Shown here: positions 4,755 to 56,104 of the stretch, piece after piece
How positions within the stretch are numbered: the first letter of the stretch is position 1
How the letters are laid out: each line of letters begins with the position of its first letter
NCBI GenBank assembly: GCA_046497465.1
Contig: JAWOFO010000043.1
Coordinates: 14,966 to 78,965, forward strand
Source of the DNA: Desulfobia sp.
GTDB lineage: Bacteria > Desulfobacterota > Desulfobulbia > Desulfobulbales > SURF-16
Reading direction: 5' to 3'
Length of the DNA stretch: 64,000 bases
Translations under genes and position numbers: made by a program
The notes under the pieces: generated by a model
Databases searched by the model: none
Told to the model about the DNA's origin: nothing
The model's input: only the letters and a program-made list of their open reading frames with translations

Positions 4755-4784
4755 CTCAACCTTTCGACTTGAGAAAACTATTAT
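4755..4784 (-). mobile_element. family-A repeat; left fragment of a short copy split by insertion of the 4785-5067 copy
   Basis: CTCAACCTTTCGACTTGAGAAAACTATTAT matches the first 30 nt of the intact short copy at 16751 (CTCAACTTTCCGGCTTGAGAAAACTATTAC). Confidence 0.8.
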
Positions 4785-5067
4785 CTCAACTTTCCGACTT
4801 AATTTATCTATATGATACGACGTGAAAATTTCCCGTCAAACAGTGGAGTTTAGCGGTTGATATGTCTGTTCAGGAACATTGTGCAGTGTTTGTTAGTGGC
4901 TTTTGGCGAAGCGAAACGTTAAAAATTTCAACTGCCTGAGCGAGGCACGAGCGAATTTTGAAATTTTAGTGAAGCGAGCCTTAGAGCCACTCAAACACGA
5001 AGCCGTTCCTGAATGGACATGCCAACCTCATAAAATCCTGCTGTTTTTTTTAAGCCGGAAAGCTGAG
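4785..5067 (+). mobile_element. family-A MITE-like palindromic element, full-length copy A1 (283 bp); + means the long arm comes first
   Basis: Imperfect terminal inverted repeats CTCAACTTTCCGACTTAA / TTAAGCCGGAAAGCTGAG. Internal inverted repeat GTCTGTTCAGGAAC / GTTCCTGAATGGAC flanks a palindromic core of about 127 nt. Near-identical copies lie at 7349, 36041 and 62877. CTATTAT occurs on both flanks (4778-4784 and 5068-5074). Confidence 0.9.
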
Positions 5068-5090
5068 CTATTATGATTTCAGCTATCAAC
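5068..5090 (-). mobile_element. family-A repeat; right fragment of the disrupted short copy (degenerate beyond about 5082)
   Basis: CTATTATGATTTCAG continues the arm sequence ...AAACTATTA(T/C)GATTTCAGACGG seen at 16776-16793, 42108-42127 and 62897-62916. Confidence 0.6.
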
Positions 5091-7348: not shown

Positions 7349-7631
7349 CTCAACTTTCCTACTTAAGAAAAATAGCAGGATTTCATGAGGTTGGCATGTC
7401 TATTCAGGAACGGCTTCGTGTTTAAGTGGCTCTAAGGCTCGCTTCACTAAAATTTCAAAACTCGCTCGTACCTCGCTCAGACAGTTGAAATTTTTAACGT
7501 TTCGCTTCGCCAAAAGCCACTAACAAACACTGCACAATGTTCCTGAATAGACATATCCACCGCTAAATACCACTGTCTGACGGGAGATTTTCACGTTATA
7601 TCATATAAATAAATTAAGTCGGAAAGTTGAG
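7349..7631 (-). mobile_element. family-A element, full-length copy A2 (283 bp, inverted relative to A1)
   Basis: Its reverse complement aligns end to end with 4785-5067 and 36041-36323. It sits between the lnt stop and the prfB start. Flanked by TAATAA on both sides (7343-7348 and 7632-7637). Confidence 0.9.
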
Positions 7632-7699: not shown

Positions 7700-8795
7700 A
7701 TGTCAGCAGAGCTTAAACAAAAAATTCAGGATATCCGGGATAGGCTGCTAGCCCTGAAGGAGCATCTTTGAATTATCTGATAAAGAAGAAAAACTGAAAA
7801 GGCTTGAAGCTGCCACCAGGCAACCCGGTTTCTGGAATAAGATTGATGAAGCGAAAAAGATCAATCAGGAGATCAGCAGGATCAAGGAAACCTTAGAGAA
7901 CTGGAACTCATTTCACAGCCATCTGGAAGACAGCGAGACCCTCCTGGAACTTGCTCTGGAAGAAGACGACCCAAATACCGTCAAAGAGGCTGAGACAGCC
8001 ATCAATAACCTGGAAAAACAGCTATCTTCTTTTGAGTTGAACTGTATGTTCACCGGCGAGCATGATGCCAATAATGCCATCCTGGCGATCAACGCCGGCG
8101 CTGGCGGGACCGAGGCTCAGGACTGGGTGGAAATACTGATGCGAATGTATCTCCGCTGGTCTGAAAACAAAGGGTTTAAGACGGATATACTCGATTATCT
8201 CCCCGGTGACGAGGCAGGTATAAAAGGAGTAACCATAATGGTCAAAGGGCATAATGGCTACGGACACCTGCGCTCAGAAATCGGTATTCATCGTTTGGTG
8301 CGTATTTCACCTTTTGATGCGGGAGGCCGCCGTCACACCTCATTCGCTTCTGTTTTCGTTTTCCCGGAACTGGACGATAGTATAAAAGTTGATATAAATG
8401 AGAAAGACTTGCGTATAGATACTTACAGGGCAAGCGGCGCTGGAGGCCAGCATGTCAACAAGACAAGTTCAGCCATCCGTATTACTCATATCCCTACCAA
8501 CATCGTAGTGCAATGCCAGAATGAACGTTCCCAGCACAGGAATAAAGACATGGCCCTGAAAATGTTAAAGGCCAGACTTTATGAAAAAGAACGGGAGGTC
8601 CAGCAGGAACAGCACCAGGAGCTTAAAGGTGAAAAAAAAAATATAGCCTGGGGGAGTCAGATCAGATCTTATATAATGCAGCCCTATCAGCTCATTAAGG
8701 ACCACCGCACCAACTTTGAAACAGGCAAAGTGGATCATGTCCTCAATGGGGATCTTGATCCTTTTATTAAAGAGTACCTGCTCTGGCAGAGCTGA
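7700..8795 (+). CDS. prfB: peptide chain release factor 2, requiring a programmed +1 frameshift at 7766-7771
   Basis: Frame 0 reads ATG 7700 ... AAG GAG CAT CTT TGA (stop at 7769-7771). The +1 frame from GAA 7770 (ELSDKEEKLKRLEAATRQPGFWN...) is in frame with track ORF 8037-8795, which carries the RF2 SPF and GGQ motifs (VRISPFDA, GAGGQHVNKT). Confidence 0.92.
7757..7772 (+). promoter_or_regulatory. prfB +1 frameshift site: internal SD-like AAGGAG, 3-nt spacer, slippery CTT, in-frame TGA
   Basis: AAGGAG CAT CTT TGA A has the same geometry as the E. coli prfB site AGGGGG TAT CTT TGA C. Confidence 0.85.
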
Positions 8796-8846: not shown

Positions 8847-8939
8847 TTCAACTTTCCGGATTGATTTATCTGTATGATATAACGTGTATATTTTTAGTGA
8901 GGCAGGGGTATTTGACGGTTGGTATGTTTATTCAGGAAC
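8847..8939 (+). mobile_element. family-A repeat, half element (one arm only, ending exactly at the TTCAGGAAC motif)
   Basis: TTCAACTTTCCGGATTGATTTATCTGTATGATATAACGTG...GACGGTTGGTATGTTTATTCAGGAAC is the reverse complement of the right arm of the copy at 42088-42234. Confidence 0.8.
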
Positions 8940-8964
8940 AGCGACTTAATAAATCCCTTTGCTG

Positions 8965-11004: not shown

Positions 11005-11094
11005 TTCAACCAGTATCTTTCTAAAAACCTGTATGATATAACTCGCAAACTTTTTAGTGAAATCATAATAGTTTTCTCAAGTCGAAAAGTTGAG
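11005..11094 (+). mobile_element. family-A repeat, minimal copy of about 90 bp (degenerate left terminus)
   Basis: ...CTGTATGATATAACTCGCAAACTTTTTAGTGAAATCATAATAGTTTTCTCAAGTCGAAAAGTTGAG joins the two arm ends directly, with no core. Confidence 0.7.
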
Positions 11095-11302
11095 GTCTTA
11101 ATTTATGCCTTGAAGTTTTCAGTGCCAAATTTTAAAATCAATGGTTAAAACAGGTCAAATTGAATTAAGTTAATCAGATATTTTTTCTTGCAAAACAAAA
11201 GATTTTATAGAACCTTTTAGGCAAAAGTAGTCAAGAAAGAAACAATGATTGACCAAATCCTTAAGATGTATTTTTTTTATTTTTGTTATAAATCAGAAAA
11301 AG

Positions 11303-11356
11303 ACGTGCAAATTTTTTAGTTATATCATAATAGTTTTCTCAAGCCGGAAAGTTGAA
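11303..11356 (+). mobile_element. family-A repeat, partial copy (right end only)
   Basis: ACGTGCAAATTTTTTAGTTATATCATAATAGTTTTCTCAAGCCGGAAAGTTGAA ends 21 nt before the ATG at 11378. Confidence 0.7.
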
Positions 11357-11377
11357 ATCTTACAACAAGGTATACCC

Positions 11378-13891: not shown

Positions 13892-14076
13892 GTAAGTTCT
13901 CAATAAGTCCTAACTCAATAAGTCCTAACTACAAATATATACTGAACAAACGGTACTCAATACTAAGGAACGCCATAAACCTGTCCCTGGGGGCTTGACT
14001 GCAGCCGTCCTGGCTGCAGACACACCCTCGTAAAAAGACCGTTTGTTCCTGTTACCCTCAATTTTTGAAAAATTAC
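13892..14076 (+). repeat. family-B structured repeat, copy B1 (185 bp)
   Basis: GTAAGTTCTCAATAAGTCC...GGGGGCTTGACTGCAGCCGTCCTGGCTGCAGACAC...TTCCTGTTACCCTCAATTTTTGAAAAATTAC is the reverse complement of 16375-16601, apart from a block of about 50 nt present only in B2 and small indels elsewhere. It contains the hairpin TGCAGCC-GTCCT-GGCTGCA and a tandem 15-nt duplication (TCAATAAGTCCTAAC x2). Confidence 0.85.
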
Positions 14077-16374: not shown

Positions 16375-16601
16375 GTAAGTTCTCAAAAATCGAGGACAAC
16401 AGGAACTAATGGATGATTCGTCACCTTCCTTACCATAACGTACCGGAGGTACGGTCAACGGTGCCGGGTACGAGAGTGTCTGCAGCCAGGACGGCTGCAT
16501 CAAGCCCCCAGGGACGGATTTATGGCGTCCCTCGTACCCGGTACCGCTTGTTCAGTATAAATTTGTATGCCAGGACTTATTGAGAACTTACTATTTTTCA
16601 G
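16375..16601 (-). repeat. family-B structured repeat, copy B2 (227 bp, inverted relative to B1)
   Basis: Terminal inverted repeats GTAAGTTCTCAA / TTGAGAACTTAC. Internal nested stems: CCGGGTACGAG...CTCGTACCCGG encloses TGCAGCC-AGGAC-GGCTGCA and GGGACG-GATTTATGG-CGTCCC. Confidence 0.85.
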
Positions 16602-16750: not shown

Positions 16751-16875
16751 CTCAACTTTCCGGCTTGAGAAAACTATTACGATTTCAGACGGTTGGCATG
16801 TTTATCAAGTACTCTTGCCTCACTAAAAAATTTGCAAGTTATATCATACCAGATAAATCAATCCGGAAAGTTGAA
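16751..16875 (-). mobile_element. family-A repeat, intact short copy (125 bp) with an 8-9 bp direct flank duplication
   Basis: CTCAACTTTCCGGCTTGAGAAAACTATTACGATTTCAGACGGTTGGCATG...ATAAATCAATCCGGAAAGTTGAA. TTATCTAA occurs at 16743-16750 and again at 16876-16883. Confidence 0.85.
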
Positions 16876-30080: not shown

Positions 30081-30225
30081 GTCTTCAGCAGTCAGCGAAA
30101 AGCGCTTAGCTCAAGTCTCATGTACCCCTTTTCCTGCTGATTGCTGAAGACTGTTTGGCACATTTTTAAAGACGAACAGATATGGGGAAACCTCGAGTTC
30201 GGGTTTCCTTATCTCGAGGAGTGCC

Positions 30226-30287
30226 GTTCCTGAATGACTATACCAACCGTCTGAAATCATAATAGTTTTCTCAACTGTAGAGTAGAG
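30226..30287 (+). mobile_element. family-A repeat, half element starting at the GTTCCTGAA motif, with a degenerate terminus
   Basis: GTTCCTGAATGACTATACCAACCGTCTGAAATCATAATAGTTTTCTCAAC is the reverse complement of the left arm of the 16751 and 42088 copies. Confidence 0.7.
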
Positions 30288-36040: not shown

Positions 36041-36323
36041 CTCAACTTTCCGGCTTAATTTATTTATATGATATAACGTGAAAATCTCCCGTCAGACAGT
36101 GGTATTTAGCGGTGGATATGTCTATTCAGGAACATTGTGCAGTGTTTGCTAGTGGTTTTTGGCGAAGCGAAACGTTAAAAATTTCAACTGTCTGAGCGAG
36201 GTACGAGCGAGTTTTGCAATTTTAGTGAAGCGAGCCTTAGAGCCACTCAAACACGAAGCCGTTCCTGAATAGACATGCCAACCTCATGAAATCCTGCTAT
36301 TTTTCTTAAGTCGGAAAGTTGAG
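36041..36323 (+). mobile_element. family-A element, full-length copy A3 (283 bp)
   Basis: Collinear with 4785-5067, with 6 mismatches in the 127-nt core. It lies between the hom start and the stop of the mqnB-like gene. Confidence 0.9.
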
Positions 36324-42087: not shown

Positions 42088-42234
42088 CTCAACTTTCCGG
42101 CTTAAGAGAACTGTTATGATTTCAGACGGTCGGTACAGCCGTTCCTGAATAAACATACCAACCGTCAAGTATCCCTGCCTCACTAAAAAATTTGTACGTT
42201 ATATCATACAAATAAATCAATCCGGAAAGTTGAA
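42088..42234 (-). mobile_element. family-A repeat, intact short copy (147 bp) inside the hdrA-mvhD intergenic spacer
   Basis: CTCAACTTTCCGGCTTAAGAGAACTGTTATGATTTCAGACGGTCGGTACAGCCGTTCCTGAATAAACATACCAACCGTC...AATCCGGAAAGTTGAA fills most of the 178-nt gap between the two genes. Confidence 0.85.
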
Positions 42235-45436: not shown

Positions 45437-48400
45437 TTATACTTCATACCTTTCAACTTTAACCGCGCATACTTTGTACTCGGGACTTCGGGACAGGCGA
45501 TCAAGATTATTAAAAGTCAAGAGATTTATTGGGGCCTCAGCAAAGTGATAAGGGACAAAAACGGTTCCTGGCTGGGAACGTCCGGTAACTTTGGCTCTTA
45601 TGTTTACAGTGCCCCGCCGGGAGGTGAGCCTCAGCCAGTCCCCGTCTTCCAGATTCAGCTTTTCGGCATCTGCCGGATTTATTTCCGCGAACCCTTCCGG
45701 GCATAATTCCTCAATAGCCTTGGTTTTCCGGCTCATGCTACCGAAGTTATACTGGGCCAGCTCCCGACCGGTGGTAAGTATATAAGTATACTCCTCGTCA
45801 GGTAATTCTCCCGGGCCTAGATAATCCTCTGGCATGAACATCCCTCTGCCCCGGGTAAATTCACCTGTATGAAGGACTGGCGTACCGGGATGTTCCTTAT
45901 CAGGACAGGGCCACTGTATCCCTTCTCTTTCCAGACGGTTGTAGGATATACCGGCATATTGGGGCACCAGTGCAGATATCTCGTCAAAAATCTCCTCAGC
46001 CGAATTATACTGCATACTGTACCCCATCTTTCGGGCCAGGCGACAAAGAATCATCCAGTCCGGCATAGCCTGCCCCGGAGGTTCAACAGCTTTTCTGACT
46101 CTCTGGACTCTTCTTTCCGTACTGGTAAAGGTCCCGTTTTTTTCAGCAAAACATACGGCAGGCAGAACAACATCTGCCATTCTGGCAGTATCGGTTAAAA
46201 AAATATCCTGTACCAGAAGAAAATCAAGCTCCTTGATAGCCCGAGCAGCATAGCCGGCATTGGGGTCTGCCAGAACAGGATCTTCCCCCATTATATAAAG
46301 ACCTTTTATATTACCGTTAATTATATTGTCCCAGACTTCAGTAGCCGCCGTGCCCGGCCTCCGGGGTAGCCTGATTCCCCACATATTTTCATAGCGGTCA
46401 AAAATCTCGTCGCTGCCGAGCCCGGAATAACCGGGAAGGGTATTAAATAATGCCCCCATATCACAGGCACCCTGGACATTGTTCTGTCCCCTCAGGGGAT
46501 TAACCCCGTTACCTGGCTTGCCCAGCTTACCGCAGAGCATGGCCAGGTTGGCAACAGATTTAACGTTGTCCGTCCCCACCGCGTAGTGGGCCAGTCCCAT
46601 GCCGAAAAAGATGGCTGAATTTTTGCCCGGACTGGCATACAATCTGGCTGCCCTGCGCAGTTCATCTTCCCCGATACCTGTTATCCGGGAAACATACTTC
46701 GGGGTATACTTGGCAACTGCTGTCTTGAGGTCTTCAAAATTTTCGGTCCGCTCCCTGACAAAATCCCGGTCCCAGAGATCTTCCTCCAGAATAAGATTAC
46801 ACATACCATTTAACAGGGCGACATCGCTACCCGGTTTATTGGAAAGCCAGATATCAGCAGATCTTGCCAGATCCGTGCCCCGTGGATCTACAACTATCAG
46901 TTTTGCGCCATTATCCACCGCCTGATGAATCCGGAGCCCGATAGTGGGATGACAGGGATCGGGGTTTGAACCGATAATCATTATCACATCGGCCTCTTTT
47001 ATATCCCCGATAGAATTGGTCATTGCTCCGCTGCCGAACGAAATGGCCAAACTGGCCACAGTGGGGGCGTGTCAGAGCCGGGCACAGTGATCTATATTGT
47101 TGGTCCCCAGAACTGTCCTCATGAACTTCTGCATGAGGAAATTCTCTTCATTCGTGGCCTTGGAACAGGAAAAACCGGCAATGGAATCGGAACCGAACAT
47201 CACCTTCATGTCAAAGAAATTACAGGCAACAATTTCCAGGGCATCATCCCAGCTGGTCGGCACCAGCCTGCCCCCCCTGCGGACCAGAGGCGTGGTCAGC
47301 CGACTTTTGTCCCTGACAAAATCATGACCGAAACGGCCCTTAACACAAAGAGCACCATAGTTGGGGACCTGATCATTATCAGCAGTAGCCTCAATTATGG
47401 TATTTCCCTTCACCCGCAAAATAATCTGACATCCGGCTCCACAGTAAGGGCAGGTAGTCCTGATGTTGTCCACCTGTTCATCAATAACAGGTACAATCGC
47501 AGCCTTCTTGGTCAGGGCCCCGGTAGGACAATGGTCCACGCACCTGCCGCAGGAAACACAGTTATCGTTGAATCTAAAGGTTAAACCAAAAGGGTTTCCC
47601 TGATCATCCACCTTTTCACAGCTCAGATCAACAGCCCCATACTCACAGACATGCAGACATCTCTGGCAGTATATACACTTGTTAAGATCAACTTCTATAG
47701 CAGGATGGGAAGTAACCACAGGATAAACCGGCTTCCTGCCCATCCCTGTCCTGTTGAGGTTGATCTTATGGTCAATATTGAGATCCTTGAATTCACAGTG
47801 CTCAAAAGCCTTACATCCACAGGAAAGACATCTCTCAGCCTCCTTCCGGGCCGTTTTCTCATTAAAACCGAATCTGACCTCATCAAAGTCTTGAATAGCC
47901 CTTTCCGGCGGACGAGCCGGCATCTTTTCCCGGAGTTTGACAGCGATGCCGTCAAAATTGGCCAGGTCAACATCGTCAAACGAGCTGCCCCGGCTGAAGT
48001 TAAAGCGGCTCGGGGCCGACATTTTTGGAGTCCCCGTTATATAGGCATCTATATTATCAGCCGCTCTCCGACCGGAGACAACCGCCTGGATAACACTCCT
48101 GGTACCGCTGGCAGCATCACCTGCTGCAAAGACACCGGGGACTGAAGTAGCGGAATCCCTCGGAGATGCCTCGATTATATTGCCGGCTTTTAACTTCAGC
48201 CGGCCTTCCAGTTTACCATCATACCCTTGTTCGCTTATAGCCATCTGGCCCTGAGATGAGACCAGGGTATCAACCCTAAGGGTCTGTGATGTCCCTGGTA
48301 CCGCCTCAAAAAACCGCCTACCACGCTCATCAGGTTCACCGTAACGCATACGGACCAGCTCTACCTCCAGAAAACCCTGGGAATTTTCCTGGATCTTTAC

Positions 48401-49555
48401 CGGTGTAGCCATCAGGAGAAACTGGACCCCCTCCTCTTCTGCCTCTCTGATATTACGCTGGTTGGCAGGCATCTCTTCCCTACCCCGGAAATAGACAACT
48501 GTTACACTTTCTACATTACATCTTAAAAGGCATCTGGCAGTTTCCATGGCGATATTATTGCCGCCTATTACAACCGCCTTCCAGCCGCAGTTTTTTTTTC
48601 TACCGGTGGCAACCTGCTTAAGAAACTGGGTGGCATTCAATACCCTGGGATGAGTCGAACCCTCAATCTCAAGGGGTTTGTCAACCCCTGCACCTATGGT
48701 AATCAGAACAGCATCATAGCCCTGATCCTTGAGATCCTGGAGACTAAAGTCAGAACCCCATCTCTGGCTCAAGCGGACAGAAATCCCAAGCCGGAGTATA
48801 ATCTCCAGTTCATAGTCCAGTACATCCCGAGGAATTTTATATTCAGGATGTCCGTAACGCAACATCCCCCCAAGTTTGGGATTAGCCTCAAAAACGGTAA
48901 CATCATGGCCTTTTCTTGACAAATAAAAAGCACTGGTCATTCCGGCCGGACCTCCGCCGATAATGGCAACTTTCCTGCCGCTGGGTTCAGGCCTGTCAAA
49001 GCTGATATCAATCCCGGCTGACATACACCAGTCAGCCACAAACCTTTTAAGATGATTAATGGCAATAGAATCATCAACCAGCAGCCGCCGGCACCTGGTT
49101 TCACAGAAACGGGGACAGACCCGGCCCACAGAAAAAGGAAAGGGGTTTTTCTCCATAATGAGCCGGAAAGACTCTTCATATTCGCCTTTGCGAATATGAG
49201 CTATATAGCCCTGGATATTTATCTGACCGGGACAGGTTAGATTACAGGGCGCCTTACAGTCACCGAAATGGACGGATGACATAACTGCAAGCCGGGAGGC
49301 CCTCATCTCCCTGAGATGCTCATTATCAGTGACAATTTTCATGCCATCCCCGGCAGGAGTCTGACAGGCAAGGACCGGCTCGCTGTAACCCTCTACTTCA
49401 ACAAGACAGAGCCGACATGGTACATCGCTTGTTTTTCCATTAATAGTACACAGCGCAGGTACATTGATTCCGGCTCTGCGGGCTATATCAAGGACAGTCA
49501 GACCTTTTTCAGCGATTATCTCCGAGCCGTTGATCTCCAGAGTGATTGCAGACAT
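45437..49555 (-). CDS. fdhA: formate dehydrogenase alpha-subunit fusion selenoprotein (2Fe-2S + GltD-like NAD(P)H/FAD module + 2x4Fe-4S + Mo/W-bisPGD catalytic domain); TGA at 47072-47074 read as Sec
   Basis: ORFs 47072-49555 and 45437-47059 are in one frame. Read-through gives [30 protein letters not shown], the classic FDH Sec motif. N-terminal motifs include VAIIGGGPAGM...GGMLRYG, CIYCQRCLHVC, and TTCPYCGAGC. Confidence 0.9.
47043..47059 (-). promoter_or_regulatory. candidate SECIS hairpin for fdhA
   Basis: On the mRNA, GUGGCCA-GUU-UGGCCAU starts 12 nt after the UGA. The geometry is comparable to the E. coli fdhF SECIS. Confidence 0.5.
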
Positions 49556-53461: not shown

Positions 53462-56104
53462 CTAGTTTAACAGACCTTTAATCAGGGACTTAGTGAGATT
53501 AATGGCCCTGGGATGTCTCATAATAAGAACATCACCGCCTGCCAGCAGCATACAGACAGCTGTTATCGCCTCTATCATGACACCCCGTCTTTCCATATCA
53601 CCCATCATATCATCGGTTGGCAGCTTACATTCCTTGGCCTTCCATACCTGGACTCCCAGGTTGCAAACCATGCTGTTCTGCAGTTTTTCATCCTCCTGGG
53701 TAAGAGCGGCAAGTCTTATTCTCTCCATAACTGAATAGGTATACTCTATACCATAGCCCAGAGCACCTATGGATGGATCCATCAAAACAGTATCAAGAGA
53801 TACCCCCAGATTTTCCAGAAGGATATTCAACTGTTTGGCCAGATTGACATCAATAGGTGAAGAAGCGACCAACGGATACTGAAAAGCCATGGCCGTAGCC
53901 CCTAATGATTTATAGTTGGTATCCTCCAAGGGGGCCAGACAGACCTTTTTATCTCCAATCTGGGCGGTTATCTCCCGCAGGCTTTCCGTATCTCTTTCAG
54001 AATTACCGCATCCCCAGACAATAATGGGAATATCAATACTGTTAATCACCTGGGCCGCATCCCTGGCCGCTTCCGACGCTGGCCTGTTCATTCCATTGGG
54101 ATCAGTACTGCCCAGAGACAGACTGATGGCTTCAGCTTTATAGTCGTTGATACACTTCTGGGCCCAGGCCAGGGGATTCTCCAGGACATCCTCAAAATGA
54201 CGGGTAAGAGATTCAGGCCATTCTTCCGGCTTGATATCCGGCACTTCCATGGCGATAAGAGGTTTATTGGGCATACTGCCCTCAAACCCATGAAAAGGCA
54301 GGACCTCCTCACCTCCGATCTTTACCTGGTTATCTCCATAACCGAGAACAGTCTCCCTGATCCGTCCGGTATATTTCATCATATAAGAATCTGGTGGCAC
54401 TTTGGAGGCCCTTTCACTCAAAGAAGTTTTTTCCGGGGCCAATTCGGCGGCTGAGAGTTCTTCACTGACCGGAGGGCTTGCCTTTTTTTCGGTTTTTGAA
54501 ACCGTCTCTTCGGCCTTTTTGACCTTCTCTGATTTCTTAACTCTCTCCTCCTTAACCGCCTCCGCCTTTCCGGCCTCCTCGGCTTTTTTAACCTCTTCCG
54601 CCTTTCTGGCTTCCTCGGCCTTTCTGGCTTCTTCGACTTTCCTGGCCTCCTCGGCTTTCCTGGCCTCCTCGGCTTTTTTAACCTCTTCCGCCTTTCTGGC
54701 TTCCTCGGCTTTTCTGGCTTCTTCGACTTTCCTGGCCTCCTCGGCTTCTCGGGTCTCTTCAGCCTTCTTCGCCTCCTCGGTTTTCCCGGCTTCTTCGGCC
54801 GCACTTTTCCTGAAAGGAGTTGTATCGGCACTGGTCCTGAAAGACTCCCTTTTTAAGACAGCTTCAGCCCCTGCAAAATTAACAAGGGCTTCAAACTGAT
54901 CATCACTCAGATTCAAGGATTTCTTCAATGCCTTAAGACCATTATTGACTGCTTCCAACGCCAATCGACGTTCTCTTTCATTCATCTCCTGTGCTCCTGC
55001 ATCGTCTCCAACTAAAAACTCCTCTTTCCGTTTGACCTGTTCCCGGGCAGTATCTACTATTTCCGCCGCCTCAGCTCTGGCCTCGGCAAGGATGCGTTCC
55101 CTCTCCTCGTCCGCCTCTTCATCTAAGGACCCGGTTACCATGACAGCTTCCCTGCCGGCCTGCCCTGCCAAGACTTCCGGAACCTCTACCACGGGACGTT
55201 CCTCAAGACCCGCCCGCCTGACAATTTCCCGGACAGCCTCTTCCCATTCAATAGCCATTATGTGGACACCTGCCAGACCTTCAATTTCCTTCAGCTGACC
55301 GATTATATCAACACAAATATTTATACCTTCGTCAGCTTTATCAGAGGCACCTTTCAGCCTTTCTATAACATCGTCAGTAACATCCAGACCTGGGACATTC
55401 TTTTTCATATACCTTGCCATACCCAGAGATTTAGGAGGAGTAACCCCGGCCAGGATATAGGCTTTTTCATGTACACCCAGATCACGTACCATTTCCATAA
55501 ATTTCCTGAATTTATCAATATTATAAACGATCTGGGTCTGAACAAAATCTGCCCCATTGGCAACTTTTTTTGCCAGCCGGGGAGCCCTGAACTCAAAGGG
55601 ATCGGCAAAGGGATTGGCGGCACAGCCGAGGAACAGTTCAGGTACACCTGTCTTTATCTCTTCCCCGCACTGAAACTCCTTATTATCCCGCATGCCCCTC
55701 ATCATTCCCAGCATCTGTATGGAATCCATATCAAAAACCCCTTTGGAACCGGGATGATTACCAAACTTCTGATGATCTCCAGTCAGGCAGAGAAGATTCT
55801 TGAGACCCAAAGCAGAAGCTCCAAGTATATCGCTTTGCATCCCAATACGATTTCTGTCCCGGCAGGTCATCTGGATTACAGGTTCAATACCTTCCTGTAA
55901 GGCAAGCAGGCCGGCACCTATACTGGACATTCTGACAATTGCGGTCTGGCAGTCGGTTATATTAACTGCATCCACATGGCCTTTAAGCAGCCCGGCCTTC
56001 TTTCTGACCACCTCTGGATCACCACTTTTAGGCGGTCCTAGTTCTCCGGTAACGGTGAATTCACCCGAGGTGAGAATTTTTTCTAGTCGGCTTCCAGATT
56101 TCAT
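53462..56104 (-). CDS. fusion protein: N-terminal methylene-THF reductase (MetF-like), a charged repeat linker, and C-terminal corrinoid Fe-S protein small subunit (AcsD / CdhD)
   Basis: 880 aa. The N-terminal part of about 300 aa has VDAVNITDCQTAIVRMSS...CLTGDH...FVQTQIVYN (MTHFR family). The middle has (KAEEAR)n. The C-terminal part of about 310 aa has VKIGGEEVLPFHGFEG...IIVWGCGN...MDPSIGALGYGIEYTYS (AcsD family). Confidence 0.8.
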   Translation of the reverse strand: MKSGSRLEKILTSGEFTVTGELGPPKSGDPEVVRKKAGLLKGHVDAVNITDCQTAIVRMSSIGAGLLALQEGIEPVIQMTCRDRNRIGMQSDILGASALGLKNLLCLTGDHQKFGNHPGSKGVFDMDSIQMLGMMRGMRDNKEFQCGEEIKTGVPELFLGCAANPFADPFEFRAPRLAKKVANGADFVQTQIVYNIDKFRKFMEMVRDLGVHEKAYILAGVTPPKSLGMARYMKKNVPGLDVTDDVIERLKGASDKADEGINICVDIIGQLKEIEGLAGVHIMAIEWEEAVREIVRRAGLEERPVVEVPEVLAGQAGREAVMVTGSLDEEADEERERILAEARAEAAEIVDTAREQVKRKEEFLVGDDAGAQEMNERERRLALEAVNNGLKALKKSLNLSDDQFEALVNFAGAEAVLKRESFRTSADTTPFRKSAAEEAGKTEEAKKAEETREAEEARKVEEARKAEEARKAEEVKKAEEARKAEEARKVEEARKAEEARKAEEVKKAEEAGKAEAVKEERVKKSEKVKKAEETVSKTEKKASPPVSEELSAAELAPEKTSLSERASKVPPDSYMMKYTGRIRETVLGYGDNQVKIGGEEVLPFHGFEGSMPNKPLIAMEVPDIKPEEWPESLTRHFEDVLENPLAWAQKCINDYKAEAISLSLGSTDPNGMNRPASEAARDAAQVINSIDIPIIVWGCGNSERDTESLREITAQIGDKKVCLAPLEDTNYKSLGATAMAFQYPLVASSPIDVNLAKQLNILLENLGVSLDTVLMDPSIGALGYGIEYTYSVMERIRLAALTQEDEKLQNSMVCNLGVQVWKAKECKLPTDDMMGDMERRGVMIEAITAVCMLLAGGDVLIMRHPRAINLTKSLIKGLLN
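54540..54800. repeat. 18-bp-periodic coding tandem repeat with a superimposed 90-bp duplication
   Basis: GGCTTTTTTAACCTCTTCCGCCTTTCTGGCTTCCTCGGC... recurs at 54581 and 54671. It encodes EEARKVEEARKAEEARKAEEVKKAEEARKA twice. Confidence 0.85.

What the first reader, a model, noticed from the sequence alone, without database searches (positions are those of the whole stretch)
4755..5090. One family-A element inserted into another, with a 7-bp target-site duplication
The 283-bp copy at 4785-5067 is bounded by CTCAACTTTCCGACTT... and ...AAGCCGGAAAGCTGAG. Its left flank (4755-4784, CTCAACCTTTCGACTTGAGAAAACTATTAT) and right flank (5068-5082, CTATTATGATTTCAG) reconstitute the uninterrupted arm CTCAACTTTCCGGCTTGAGAAAACTATTACGATTTCAG seen at 16751-16788, provided one copy of CTATTAT is removed. 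A nested insertion flanked by a direct duplication is the classic footprint of transposition. This argues that the family is, or recently was, mobile rather than a conserved regulatory site. No transposase is encoded in the window, so it behaves as a non-autonomous MITE.
Basis: seen in the sequence. Interest (0 to 1): 0.7.

Follow-up and report, generated by a model that had tools for sequence, protein, structure and literature searches.

The report
Small transposon nested inside another copy
A 283-bp non-coding mobile element (a MITE that uses the ends of an IS4-family insertion sequence) has jumped into the tip of an older, now truncated copy of its own family and duplicated 7 bp of it; this is a textbook transposition footprint and ordinary biology.

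Summary
A complete 283-bp element (4785-5067) has 16-18-bp terminal inverted repeats and is flanked on both sides by CTATTAT. Removing it and one CTATTAT restores a 38-nt piece of the family's other end (34/38 identical to 16751-16788, 36/38 to 11058-11094). Both junctions recur in independent assemblies. The host copy is only this 38-bp remnant.

The same termini (CTCAACTTTCCG...) bound 21 full-length 1.5-kb insertion sequences in Desulfobulbales, Desulfatiglandales and Desulfuromusa MAGs and sediment metagenomes. These encode a 461-474-aa IS4-family DDE transposase. Seven of the 21 have perfect 7-bp target duplications, against 1 of 420 mismatched flank pairs. Ends, size, 7-8-bp duplication and AT-rich targets all match the published ISPepr1 subgroup of IS4.

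The window encodes no transposase. The element is non-coding, folds as a long hairpin and is about 20-90x over-represented in the source metagenomes. It is therefore a non-autonomous MITE mobilised in trans.

Three things are not shown: an autonomous partner in the same genome, an empty site, and current activity. This is a new member of a known kind and of low interest.

The parts
4755..4784 (+). Host (outer) remnant, left part: positions 1-30 of the family's A end, with a degenerate terminal repeat CTCAACCTTTCGACTT followed by GAGAAAACTATTAT
   Evidence: 26/29 identical to 16751-16779. I22 pairs it with 11065-11101 at 89%.
4778..4784 (.). Target-site duplication, left copy, CTATTAT (positions 24-30 of the host A end)
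   Evidence: 7/7 identical to 5068-5074.
4785..5067 (+). Inserted 283-bp MITE, complete, long form: B end on the left, palindromic core, A' end on the right
   Evidence: 92-93% identical over 283 bp to 36041-36323 and 7349-7631; folds as one long hairpin, -55.9 kcal/mol, z -7.7; no ORF longer than 57 aa and no protein homologue.
4785..4802 (+). Left terminal inverted repeat, CTCAACTTTCCGACTTAA
   Evidence: Fits the ISPepr1-subgroup end consensus YT-AA-YTT---A.
5050..5067 (-). Right terminal inverted repeat, CTCAGCTTTCCGGCTTAA on the minus strand, 16/18 identical to the left repeat
5068..5074 (.). Target-site duplication, right copy, CTATTAT
5075..5082 (+). Host (outer) remnant, right part: GATTTCAG, positions 31-38 of the A end. 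The host copy is truncated here.
   Evidence: 5068-5082 matches positions 24-38 of the 62877 copy 15/15. There is no further family similarity up to 5640.
7349..7631 (-). Sister long-form copy, 283 bp, 98% identical to 36041-36323, flanked by TAATAA on both sides
   Evidence: (I1, I2).
36041..36323 (+). Sister long-form copy, 283 bp; flanks AATAAT / AATAAA
62877..63155 (-). Long-form copy, 279 bp, with a short-form-type A end (chimeric) and no flanking duplication
16751..16875 (-).
42088..42234 (-). Short-form copy, 147 bp; flanks AATTTAA / GGTTTAA (5/7)
8847..8942 (+). Truncated copy: B end plus the inner arm only
   Evidence: (D5, I9, I12).
11005..11094 (+). Mini-copy of about 90 bp with a decayed B-end repeat and an A end; closest relative of the host remnant
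11303..11356 (+). Half copy with an A-end terminus
   Evidence: (D6).
30223..30274 (+). A-end fragment lacking the terminal 14 nt
   Evidence: (I10, I23).

Best explanation
The 283-bp sequence at 4785-5067 is a non-autonomous MITE. Its 17-19-bp termini are those of a group of 1.5-kb insertion sequences of the IS4 family that fit the ISPepr1 subgroup.

Inferred mechanism: a transposase of that group, encoded elsewhere, bound the two terminal inverted repeats and cut the element out. By analogy with IS10/IS50, excision would go through hairpin intermediates. The transposase then joined the element to a 7-bp staggered cut in the AT-rich sequence CTATTAT. That sequence happened to lie at positions 24-30 of the A end of an older family copy. 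Gap repair duplicated the 7 bp.

The host copy is now only a 38-bp remnant, truncated after position 38 either before or after the insertion.

What is shown:
- the exact structure and junctions;
- the family's copy number;
- the lack of coding capacity;
- identical termini on full-length transposase-bearing elements that make 7-bp duplications.

What is inferred:
- mobilisation in trans;
- the cut-and-paste chemistry;
- the timing.
For: - **Structure and the 7/7 duplication:**
- **Continuity of the host arm:** 15/15 match after the insert, overlapping the left part by exactly 7 nt.
- **Repeat family in the window:** 19 terminus matches against 0.57 expected; six complete copies and five fragments in 64 kb.
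- **Abundance:** depth over the element is about 20-90x the flanks in four metagenome runs.
- **Recent duplication:** two copies are 98% identical (I1).
- **Other duplications in the window:** TTATCTAA 8/8 at 16751 and TAATAA 6/6 at 7349.
- **Full-length relatives:** 1516-1550-bp elements with CTCAACTTTCCG termini and a 461-474-aa ORF.
- **Transposase identity:** NCBIfam NF049925, IS4 family transposase, 553 bits against a cut-off of 250; Pfam DDE_5 and DDE_Tnp_1. The YREK motif is visible as YGKRWDIEVFFKMMK.
- **Duplications made by those relatives:** 7/21 perfect and 3/21 with 6 of 7, against 1/420 and 16/420 in non-cognate flank pairs.
- **Published ISPepr1 features:** 1500-1600 bp, ends YT-AA-YTT---A, duplication of 7-8 bp, AT-rich targets (PMC2266710).
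- **No transposase in the window:**
- **Junctions confirmed in independent assemblies:**
Against: - Only 1 of the 6 complete window copies has a perfect 7-bp duplication in register. The others show 8, 6, 5/6, 5/7 and none. The family footprint inside this genome therefore rests on few, partly decayed cases.
- No empty site or presence/absence polymorphism was seen in the available contigs.
- No autonomous element could be assigned to the source genome. Transposase-like contigs about 80% identical to a relative exist in the same metagenomes at similar depth, but they are unlinked.
- Beyond about 20-25 nt the MITE ends resemble the sampled IS ends only weakly.
- The inner copy is 7-8% diverged from its sisters and has a mutated right repeat (CTCAGC), so the event is not very recent.
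Confidence: 0.88

Rival explanations
1. The two family pieces are merely adjacent, or were joined by recombination between copies. On this view the shared CTATTAT is a chance match in AT-rich spacer DNA, and there was no insertion into a resident copy.
For: - AT-rich flanks make short matches common: 16/420 non-cognate flank pairs match 6 of 7.
- Recombination or chimerism between copies does occur. The 62877 copy has a different type of A end and no duplication.
- A MAG contig switches copies inside the core.
Against: - The sequence after the insert continues the host arm 15/15, in exact register with a 7-nt overlap.
- The insert is a complete unit with both termini.
- A perfect 7/7 match occurs in only 1/420 non-cognate pairs.
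- 7 bp is the duplication length made by full-length elements with these termini.
Confidence: 0.04
2. The nested arrangement is an assembly artefact produced by collapsing or mis-joining a high-copy repeat.
For: - Short-read assemblies of this organism break at these repeats.
- One MAG contig is joined to another locus through the element.
Against: - The left junction (host remnant plus 30 to about 180 nt of the insert) is identical in four independent assemblies.
- The right junction (insert end, CTATTAT, GATTTCAG, lnt) is present in another MAG contig and in Logan contigs, at depths equal to the unique flanks.
Confidence: 0.02
3. The repeats are host-maintained functional sites, such as regulatory hairpins, small RNAs or outward promoters, and spread by means other than transposition.
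For: - Strong hairpin fold, z -7.7.
- All copies are intergenic.
- A sigma-70-like site lies in the B end facing outward.
- In 3 of 4 long copies the B end faces the start of the neighbouring gene.
Against: - No Rfam family was matched.
- The promoter-like count is not above shuffles (4 against 2.2 +/- 1.8).
- The termini are those of transposase-bearing insertion sequences, and flanking duplications are present.
- Many copies are truncated or decayed.
- Later co-option is compatible with a MITE origin and does not replace it.
Confidence: 0.05
4. The element is a MITE but is moved by a transposase of a different family, and the resemblance of its ends to the IS4/ISPepr1-like elements is coincidental.
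For: - The partner in the same genome was not found.
- Similarity to the sampled IS ends fades after about 20-25 nt.
Against: - The outer 12-19 nt are identical to the ends of 21 full-length elements from related bacteria.
- Duplication length and AT-rich target preference are the same.
- The left and right IS ends correspond to the A and B ends respectively: 19/19 and 21/25 with L117.
Confidence: 0.04

Closest known systems
ISPepr1 subgroup of the IS4 family (De Palmenaer et al. 2008, PMC2266710)
   Same: - Terminal sequence fits YT-AA-YTT---A (CTCAACTTTCCGA).
- Ends begin 5'-CT.
- Target duplication is 7-8 bp.
- Targets are AT-rich.
- Full-length relatives are 1516-1550 bp with one DDE/YREK transposase.
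   Different: The window element is 283 bp and has no transposase. It shares only the ends.
Bacterial MITEs in general, for example Correia elements of Neisseria or RUP of Streptococcus pneumoniae (own knowledge; general definition as in PMC4596501)
   Same: Small, non-coding and AT-rich, with terminal inverted repeats, flanking target duplications, a hairpin-forming sequence, many intergenic copies and dependence on a transposase supplied in trans.
   Different: - It derives from a different parent IS family: an IS4/ISPepr1-like group with a 7-bp duplication, rather than the TA targets of Correia and IS630-derived elements.
- Its density is unusually high: 11 copies or fragments in 64 kb, and about 20-90x depth.
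Nested MITE insertions described in plant genomes (own knowledge: Jiang and Wessler 2001, analysis of nested maize and rice MITEs)
   Same: One MITE sits inside another with an intact target duplication. This arrangement has been used as proof of transposition and to read target preference.
   Different: This is a bacterial host with a different superfamily, and the host copy here is only a 38-bp remnant.
IS10/IS50 (Tn10/Tn5) cut-and-paste transposition (own knowledge)
   Same: Same IS family. The transposase recognises roughly 19-23-bp ends. Excision through hairpin intermediates is the presumed mechanism, and staggered target cuts give short duplications.
   Different: Tn10 and Tn5 make 9-bp duplications, whereas this group makes 7. 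The chemistry has not been studied for the ISPepr1 group.

Membership tests
MITE (non-autonomous miniature inverted-repeat transposable element) | Short (about 50-1000 bp) with no transposase gene | tested here: met
   The element is 283 bp and its longest ORF is 57 aa with no homologue. tblastn with the cognate transposases found no hit.
MITE (non-autonomous miniature inverted-repeat transposable element) | Terminal inverted repeats | tested here: met
   CTCAACTTTCCGACTTAA and CTCAGCTTTCCGGCTTAA match at 16/18.
MITE (non-autonomous miniature inverted-repeat transposable element) | Flanking target-site duplications of a characteristic length | tested here: met
   CTATTAT 7/7 here; TTATCTAA 8/8 at 16751; TAATAA 6/6 at 7349; weaker or absent at three others. 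The sample is small.
MITE (non-autonomous miniature inverted-repeat transposable element) | Multiple dispersed copies | tested here: met
   Six complete copies and five partial copies in 64 kb. Depth is about 20-90x the flanks.
MITE (non-autonomous miniature inverted-repeat transposable element) | A cognate autonomous element with the same ends | tested here: met
   Twenty-one full-length IS copies in other genomes and metagenomes share the ends. Presence in the same genome could not be tested; only unlinked transposase-like contigs were seen in the same samples.
MITE (non-autonomous miniature inverted-repeat transposable element) | Presence/absence polymorphism (empty sites) | tested here: inconclusive
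   No joint skipping a copy was found in Logan contigs of four or five runs. Contigs drop minority variants and break in the repeat.
IS4 family, ISPepr1 subgroup | Conserved ends YT-AA-YTT---A | tested here: met
   The window copies and all 21 full-length relatives begin CTCAACTTTCCG(A/G). The consensus is from PMC2266710 Table 1.
IS4 family, ISPepr1 subgroup | Direct repeats of 7-8 bp in AT-rich targets | tested here: met
   Seven of 21 full-length copies have perfect 7-bp repeats. The targets are T/A-rich and mostly start YTA. The window shows 7-bp and 8-bp cases.
IS4 family, ISPepr1 subgroup | Element of 1500-1600 bp encoding a DDE transposase with the YREK motif | tested here: met
   Met for the relatives only: 1516-1550 bp; NF049925 at 553 bits; Pfam DDE_Tnp_1; Y-x2-R-x3-E-x6-K in YGKRWDIEVFFKMMK. 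The window element itself has no transposase.
IS4 family, ISPepr1 subgroup | Transposase clusters with ISPepr1 reference proteins | not tested
   No ISfinder reference sequences were available in the tools.

The most novel reading that the evidence does not exclude
The family may be more than passive debris. The long form carries a conserved palindromic core of about 125 bp. That core is 3-4 times more abundant in the metagenomes than this copy's own ends, and elsewhere it is itself hit by a second repeat family. The B end carries an outward-facing promoter-like site that faces the adjacent gene in 3 of 4 long copies. The genome could therefore be in a MITE burst with preferential self-nesting, in which some copies have been co-opted as mobile promoters or regulatory hairpins for core genes (accC, prfB, hom).
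Probability: 0.1. Interest if true: 0.45.

Novelty: new member of a known kind. Interest (0 to 1): 0.22.

Why it matters
The nested copy is a clean natural record of one transposition event. It fixes the element's exact ends and its 7-bp target duplication, and so ties an unannotated high-copy repeat of an uncultured Desulfobulbales-like sediment bacterium to a specific transposase group (IS4, ISPepr1-like).

In practice these repeats explain why short-read MAGs of this organism shatter every few kilobases. They also explain why at least one public contig is joined to the wrong locus through a repeat. Beyond that, it is expected behaviour for a bacterial MITE.

Tried and rejected
- **Exact 16-mer scan of genome contigs:** almost all of the 113 hits were chance. 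Only L012 (a full-length IS) and L034 (a 164-bp MITE-like element) were real.
- **32-nt degenerate B-end pattern:** 0 hits in genome contigs and 0 in JGI metagenomes. The source genome and close relatives are not in those collections, so genome-wide copies could not be collected.
- **Lnt as a probe for syntenic empty sites:** only a 32%-identical hit.
- **First transposase homology search:** timed out.
- **NCBI-sourced transposase relatives P0077, P0092 and P0003:** these come from other assemblies, not from the source MAGs.
- **Laying metagenome contigs on a related IS:** found transposase-like contigs of about 1.4-1.5 kb at depths similar to the host genome, but nothing links them to it.
- **MITE-encoded pseudo-ORFs as handles to fetch more copies:** no such proteins are on record.
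- **Search for empty-site joints:** only repeat-to-repeat joints were found.
- **Rfam at gathering threshold:** nothing.
- **Terminator scan of the spacer:** none.
- **Idea that the long-form core is a separate nested element:** considered and left open. The higher depth of the core can also be explained by subfamily divergence of the ends.

Full report
**1. Observation**

Reading the sequence confirms every coordinate in the finding:
- 4755-4784 is CTCAACCTTTCGACTTGAGAAAACTATTAT.
- 4785-5067 is a 283-bp unit that starts CTCAACTTTCCGACTT and ends AAGCCGGAAAGCTGAG. Its terminal inverted repeats match at 16/18.
- 5068-5082 is CTATTATGATTTCAG.

The 16-nt terminus occurs 19 times in the window at up to 3 mismatches, against 0.57 expected from shuffles. 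The unit is 92-93% identical over its whole length to 36041-36323 and 7349-7631, and those two copies are 98% identical to each other.

Sequences 4755-4784 and 5068-5082 correspond to positions 1-30 and 24-38 of the family's 'A end', with a 15/15 match for the second piece. They overlap by exactly CTATTAT. Removing the insert and one CTATTAT gives a 38-mer that is 34/38 identical to 16751-16788 and 36/38 to the copy at 11058-11094.

CTATTAT, or CTATTAC / CTGTTAT, is the normal sequence at that position in uninterrupted A ends. It does not flank other copies. It is therefore duplicated target sequence and not part of the element's termini. Nothing downstream of 5082 resembles the family, so the host copy is a 38-bp remnant.

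**2. Is it real DNA?**

Short-read assemblies of this organism break inside these repeats, but both junctions recur independently.

Left junction:
- a contig of NCBI MAG GCA_041686435.1 (L227);
- a contig of GCA_051748965.1 (L228);
- two Logan runs (L229, L230).

All four carry the host remnant followed by 30 to about 180 nt or more of the insert, at 99.65-100% identity over the matched stretch.

Right junction:
- a second contig of GCA_041686435.1 (L115) carries the insert's end, CTATTAT, GATTTCAG and lnt at 99.96% identity;
- Logan contigs do the same, at the depth of the unique flanks.

**3. Anatomy of the family**

The window holds four long copies (283, 283, 283 and 279 bp), two short copies (125 and 147 bp) and five fragments. 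All are intergenic, among housekeeping and Wood-Ljungdahl genes.

Each element has two non-identical ends:
- A end: CTCAACTTTCCGGCTTGAGAAAACTATTATGATTTCAGACGGTTGG...
- B end: TTCAACTTTCCGGATTGATTTATCTGTATGATATAACG...

It also has a second internal inverted repeat (GGTATGTTTATTCAGGAAC / GTTCCTGAATA...ACC). The long form additionally has a palindromic core of about 125 bp.

The inner copy folds as one long hairpin (-55.9 kcal/mol, z -7.7). It has no ORF above 57 aa and no protein homologue. Rfam has no match.

Depth over the element in four metagenome runs is roughly 20-90 times that of the unique flanks.

**4. Which transposase?**

An exact search for the terminus mostly returned chance hits. 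One locus was real: L012, from a Desulfatiglandales MAG, contains a 1549-bp element bounded by the same termini. It encodes a 461-aa protein that scores 553 bits on NCBIfam NF049925 (IS4 family transposase, cut-off 250) and hits Pfam DDE_5 and DDE_Tnp_1. It carries the motif Y-x2-R-x3-E-x6-K (YGKRWDIEVFFKMMK).

Relatives at 74-84% amino-acid identity occur in Desulfocapsaceae, Desulfopila, Desulfocapsa, Desulfosediminicola and Desulfuromusa genomes. More than 4,400 proteins in the large database match at E <= 1e-50.

In 21 full-length copies (1516-1550 bp) the termini are CTCAACTTTCCG... on both sides. Seven have perfect 7-bp flanking duplications:
- TTAAAAA
- TTATTTA
- ACGGTTA
- CTGTAAT
- TTACCAT
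- TTATTAA
- TTCTTGA

Three more match 6 of 7. Among 420 mismatched left/right flank pairs, only 1 matches 7 of 7 and 16 match 6 of 7.

The L012 left end shares 19/19 nt with the MITE A end, and its right end shares 21/25 with the B end. Further inside, similarity is weak.

De Palmenaer et al. 2008 (PMC2266710, Table 1 and text) define the ISPepr1 subgroup of IS4 by four features:
- 1500-1600 bp in length;
- ends YT-AA-YTT---A;
- YREK motif present;
- direct repeats of 7-8 bp, with a preference for AT-rich targets.

All four fit.

**5. Duplications of the other window copies**

| Copy | Flanks | Match |
|---|---|---|
| 16751 | TTATCTAA on both sides | 8/8 |
| 7349 | TAATAA on both sides | 6/6 (7/7 if the terminal C is counted as target) |
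| 36041 | AATAAT / AATAAA | 5/6 |
| 42088 | AATTTAA / GGTTTAA | 5/7 |
| 62877 | none | - |

The 62877 copy is also chimeric in its A end, which is consistent with recombination between copies. The nested copy is therefore the cleanest footprint in the window. The family-level argument leans on the full-length relatives.

**6. Mechanism**

Shown:
- a complete unit with the termini of an IS4/ISPepr1-like group sits inside a family end with a 7-bp duplication;
- the window has no transposase.

Inferred:
- a transposase of that group, supplied in trans, recognised the ends of about 19 bp;
- it excised the element, by hairpin chemistry if it behaves like IS10/IS50 (established knowledge for those elements only);
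- it integrated the element at a 7-bp staggered cut.

The host copy was truncated after position 38 at an unknown time. The 7-8% divergence of the inner copy from its sisters, and its mutated right repeat (CTCAGC), suggest the event is not very recent. The 98%-identical pair suggests that some family members moved more recently.

**7. What could not be shown**

The source genome is absent from the searchable collections, so no genome-wide copy set was available. Its nearest UvrB relatives are 70-76% identical Desulfobulbales-type MAGs.

No empty-site joint was seen. Contigs about 80% identical to a related transposase gene exist in the same samples at depths similar to the host genome, but they are not linked to it.

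**8. Verdict**

This is a non-autonomous derivative of an ISPepr1-like IS4-family insertion sequence, nested in a remnant of its own family. It is a new member of a known kind. It is useful for annotation and for understanding why MAGs of this organism fragment, but it is not surprising.

Noticed in passing
window 16408-16560 and 13930-14040 (opposite orientation): A second, unrelated, G+C-richer repeat family with several short hairpins (for example CTGCAGCCAGGACGGCTGCAG and GGGACGGATTTATGGCGTCCC). Contig depth reaches about 800 against about 16 for the flanks, and assemblies break here. Loose ends at 4915 and 4934-4937 show that, elsewhere in the genome, this family is inserted inside cores of the first family.
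   Followed up: partly
L227 (GCA_041686435.1, JAWLDV010000020.1), corresponding to window 4955-5078 and beyond: This public MAG contig follows the window through accC, the host remnant and the left half of the insert. Inside the core it switches to another copy, and it exits into a different locus (flank TAATAAGATT..., a 204-aa ORF, cobD). The true right junction lies on another contig of the same MAG. This is either a repeat-mediated assembly chimera or a real recombinant.
   Followed up: partly
window 4839-4812 (minus strand), inside the B end of the insert: A sigma-70-like site (TTGACG, 16-nt spacer, TATCAT) reads outward through the B-end terminus toward accC. In 3 of 4 long copies the B end faces the start of the neighbouring gene (accC, prfB, hom). 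The count of promoter-like sites is not above the shuffles.
   Followed up: no
window 11045-11100 and 11307-11362: Two A-end termini lie in the same orientation 262 bp apart. Each is followed by a similar flank (GTCTTA / ATCTTA). This looks like a local duplication that includes flank, just upstream of a DsbA-like gene (D6, 59).
   Followed up: no
window 47072-47074 (minus strand): An in-frame TGA lies between ORFs 47072-49555 and 45437-47059, within the formate-dehydrogenase motif ...IDHCARL*HAPTV.... It is most likely a selenocysteine codon in one long fused NAD(P)-oxidoreductase/FdhA gene.
   Followed up: partly
window 7766-7771: A CTTTGA programmed +1 frameshift site of release factor 2 (prfB). 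The N-terminal part is in another frame upstream of the listed ORF 8037-8795. This is ordinary.
   Followed up: partly
window 54516-54817: About 17 tandem copies of an 18-bp unit (61-88% identical to the reference copy) lie inside the 880-aa MTHFR/CdhD fusion ORF on the minus strand. They would encode a hexapeptide-repeat linker (D1, 45).
   Followed up: no
L034 3384-3547 (Desulfurivibrionaceae MAG): A 164-bp element has the same CTCAACTTTCCG termini but an unrelated interior, with flanks matching 5 of 7. This suggests that independent MITE families arose from the same IS group in other Desulfobulbales.
   Followed up: no
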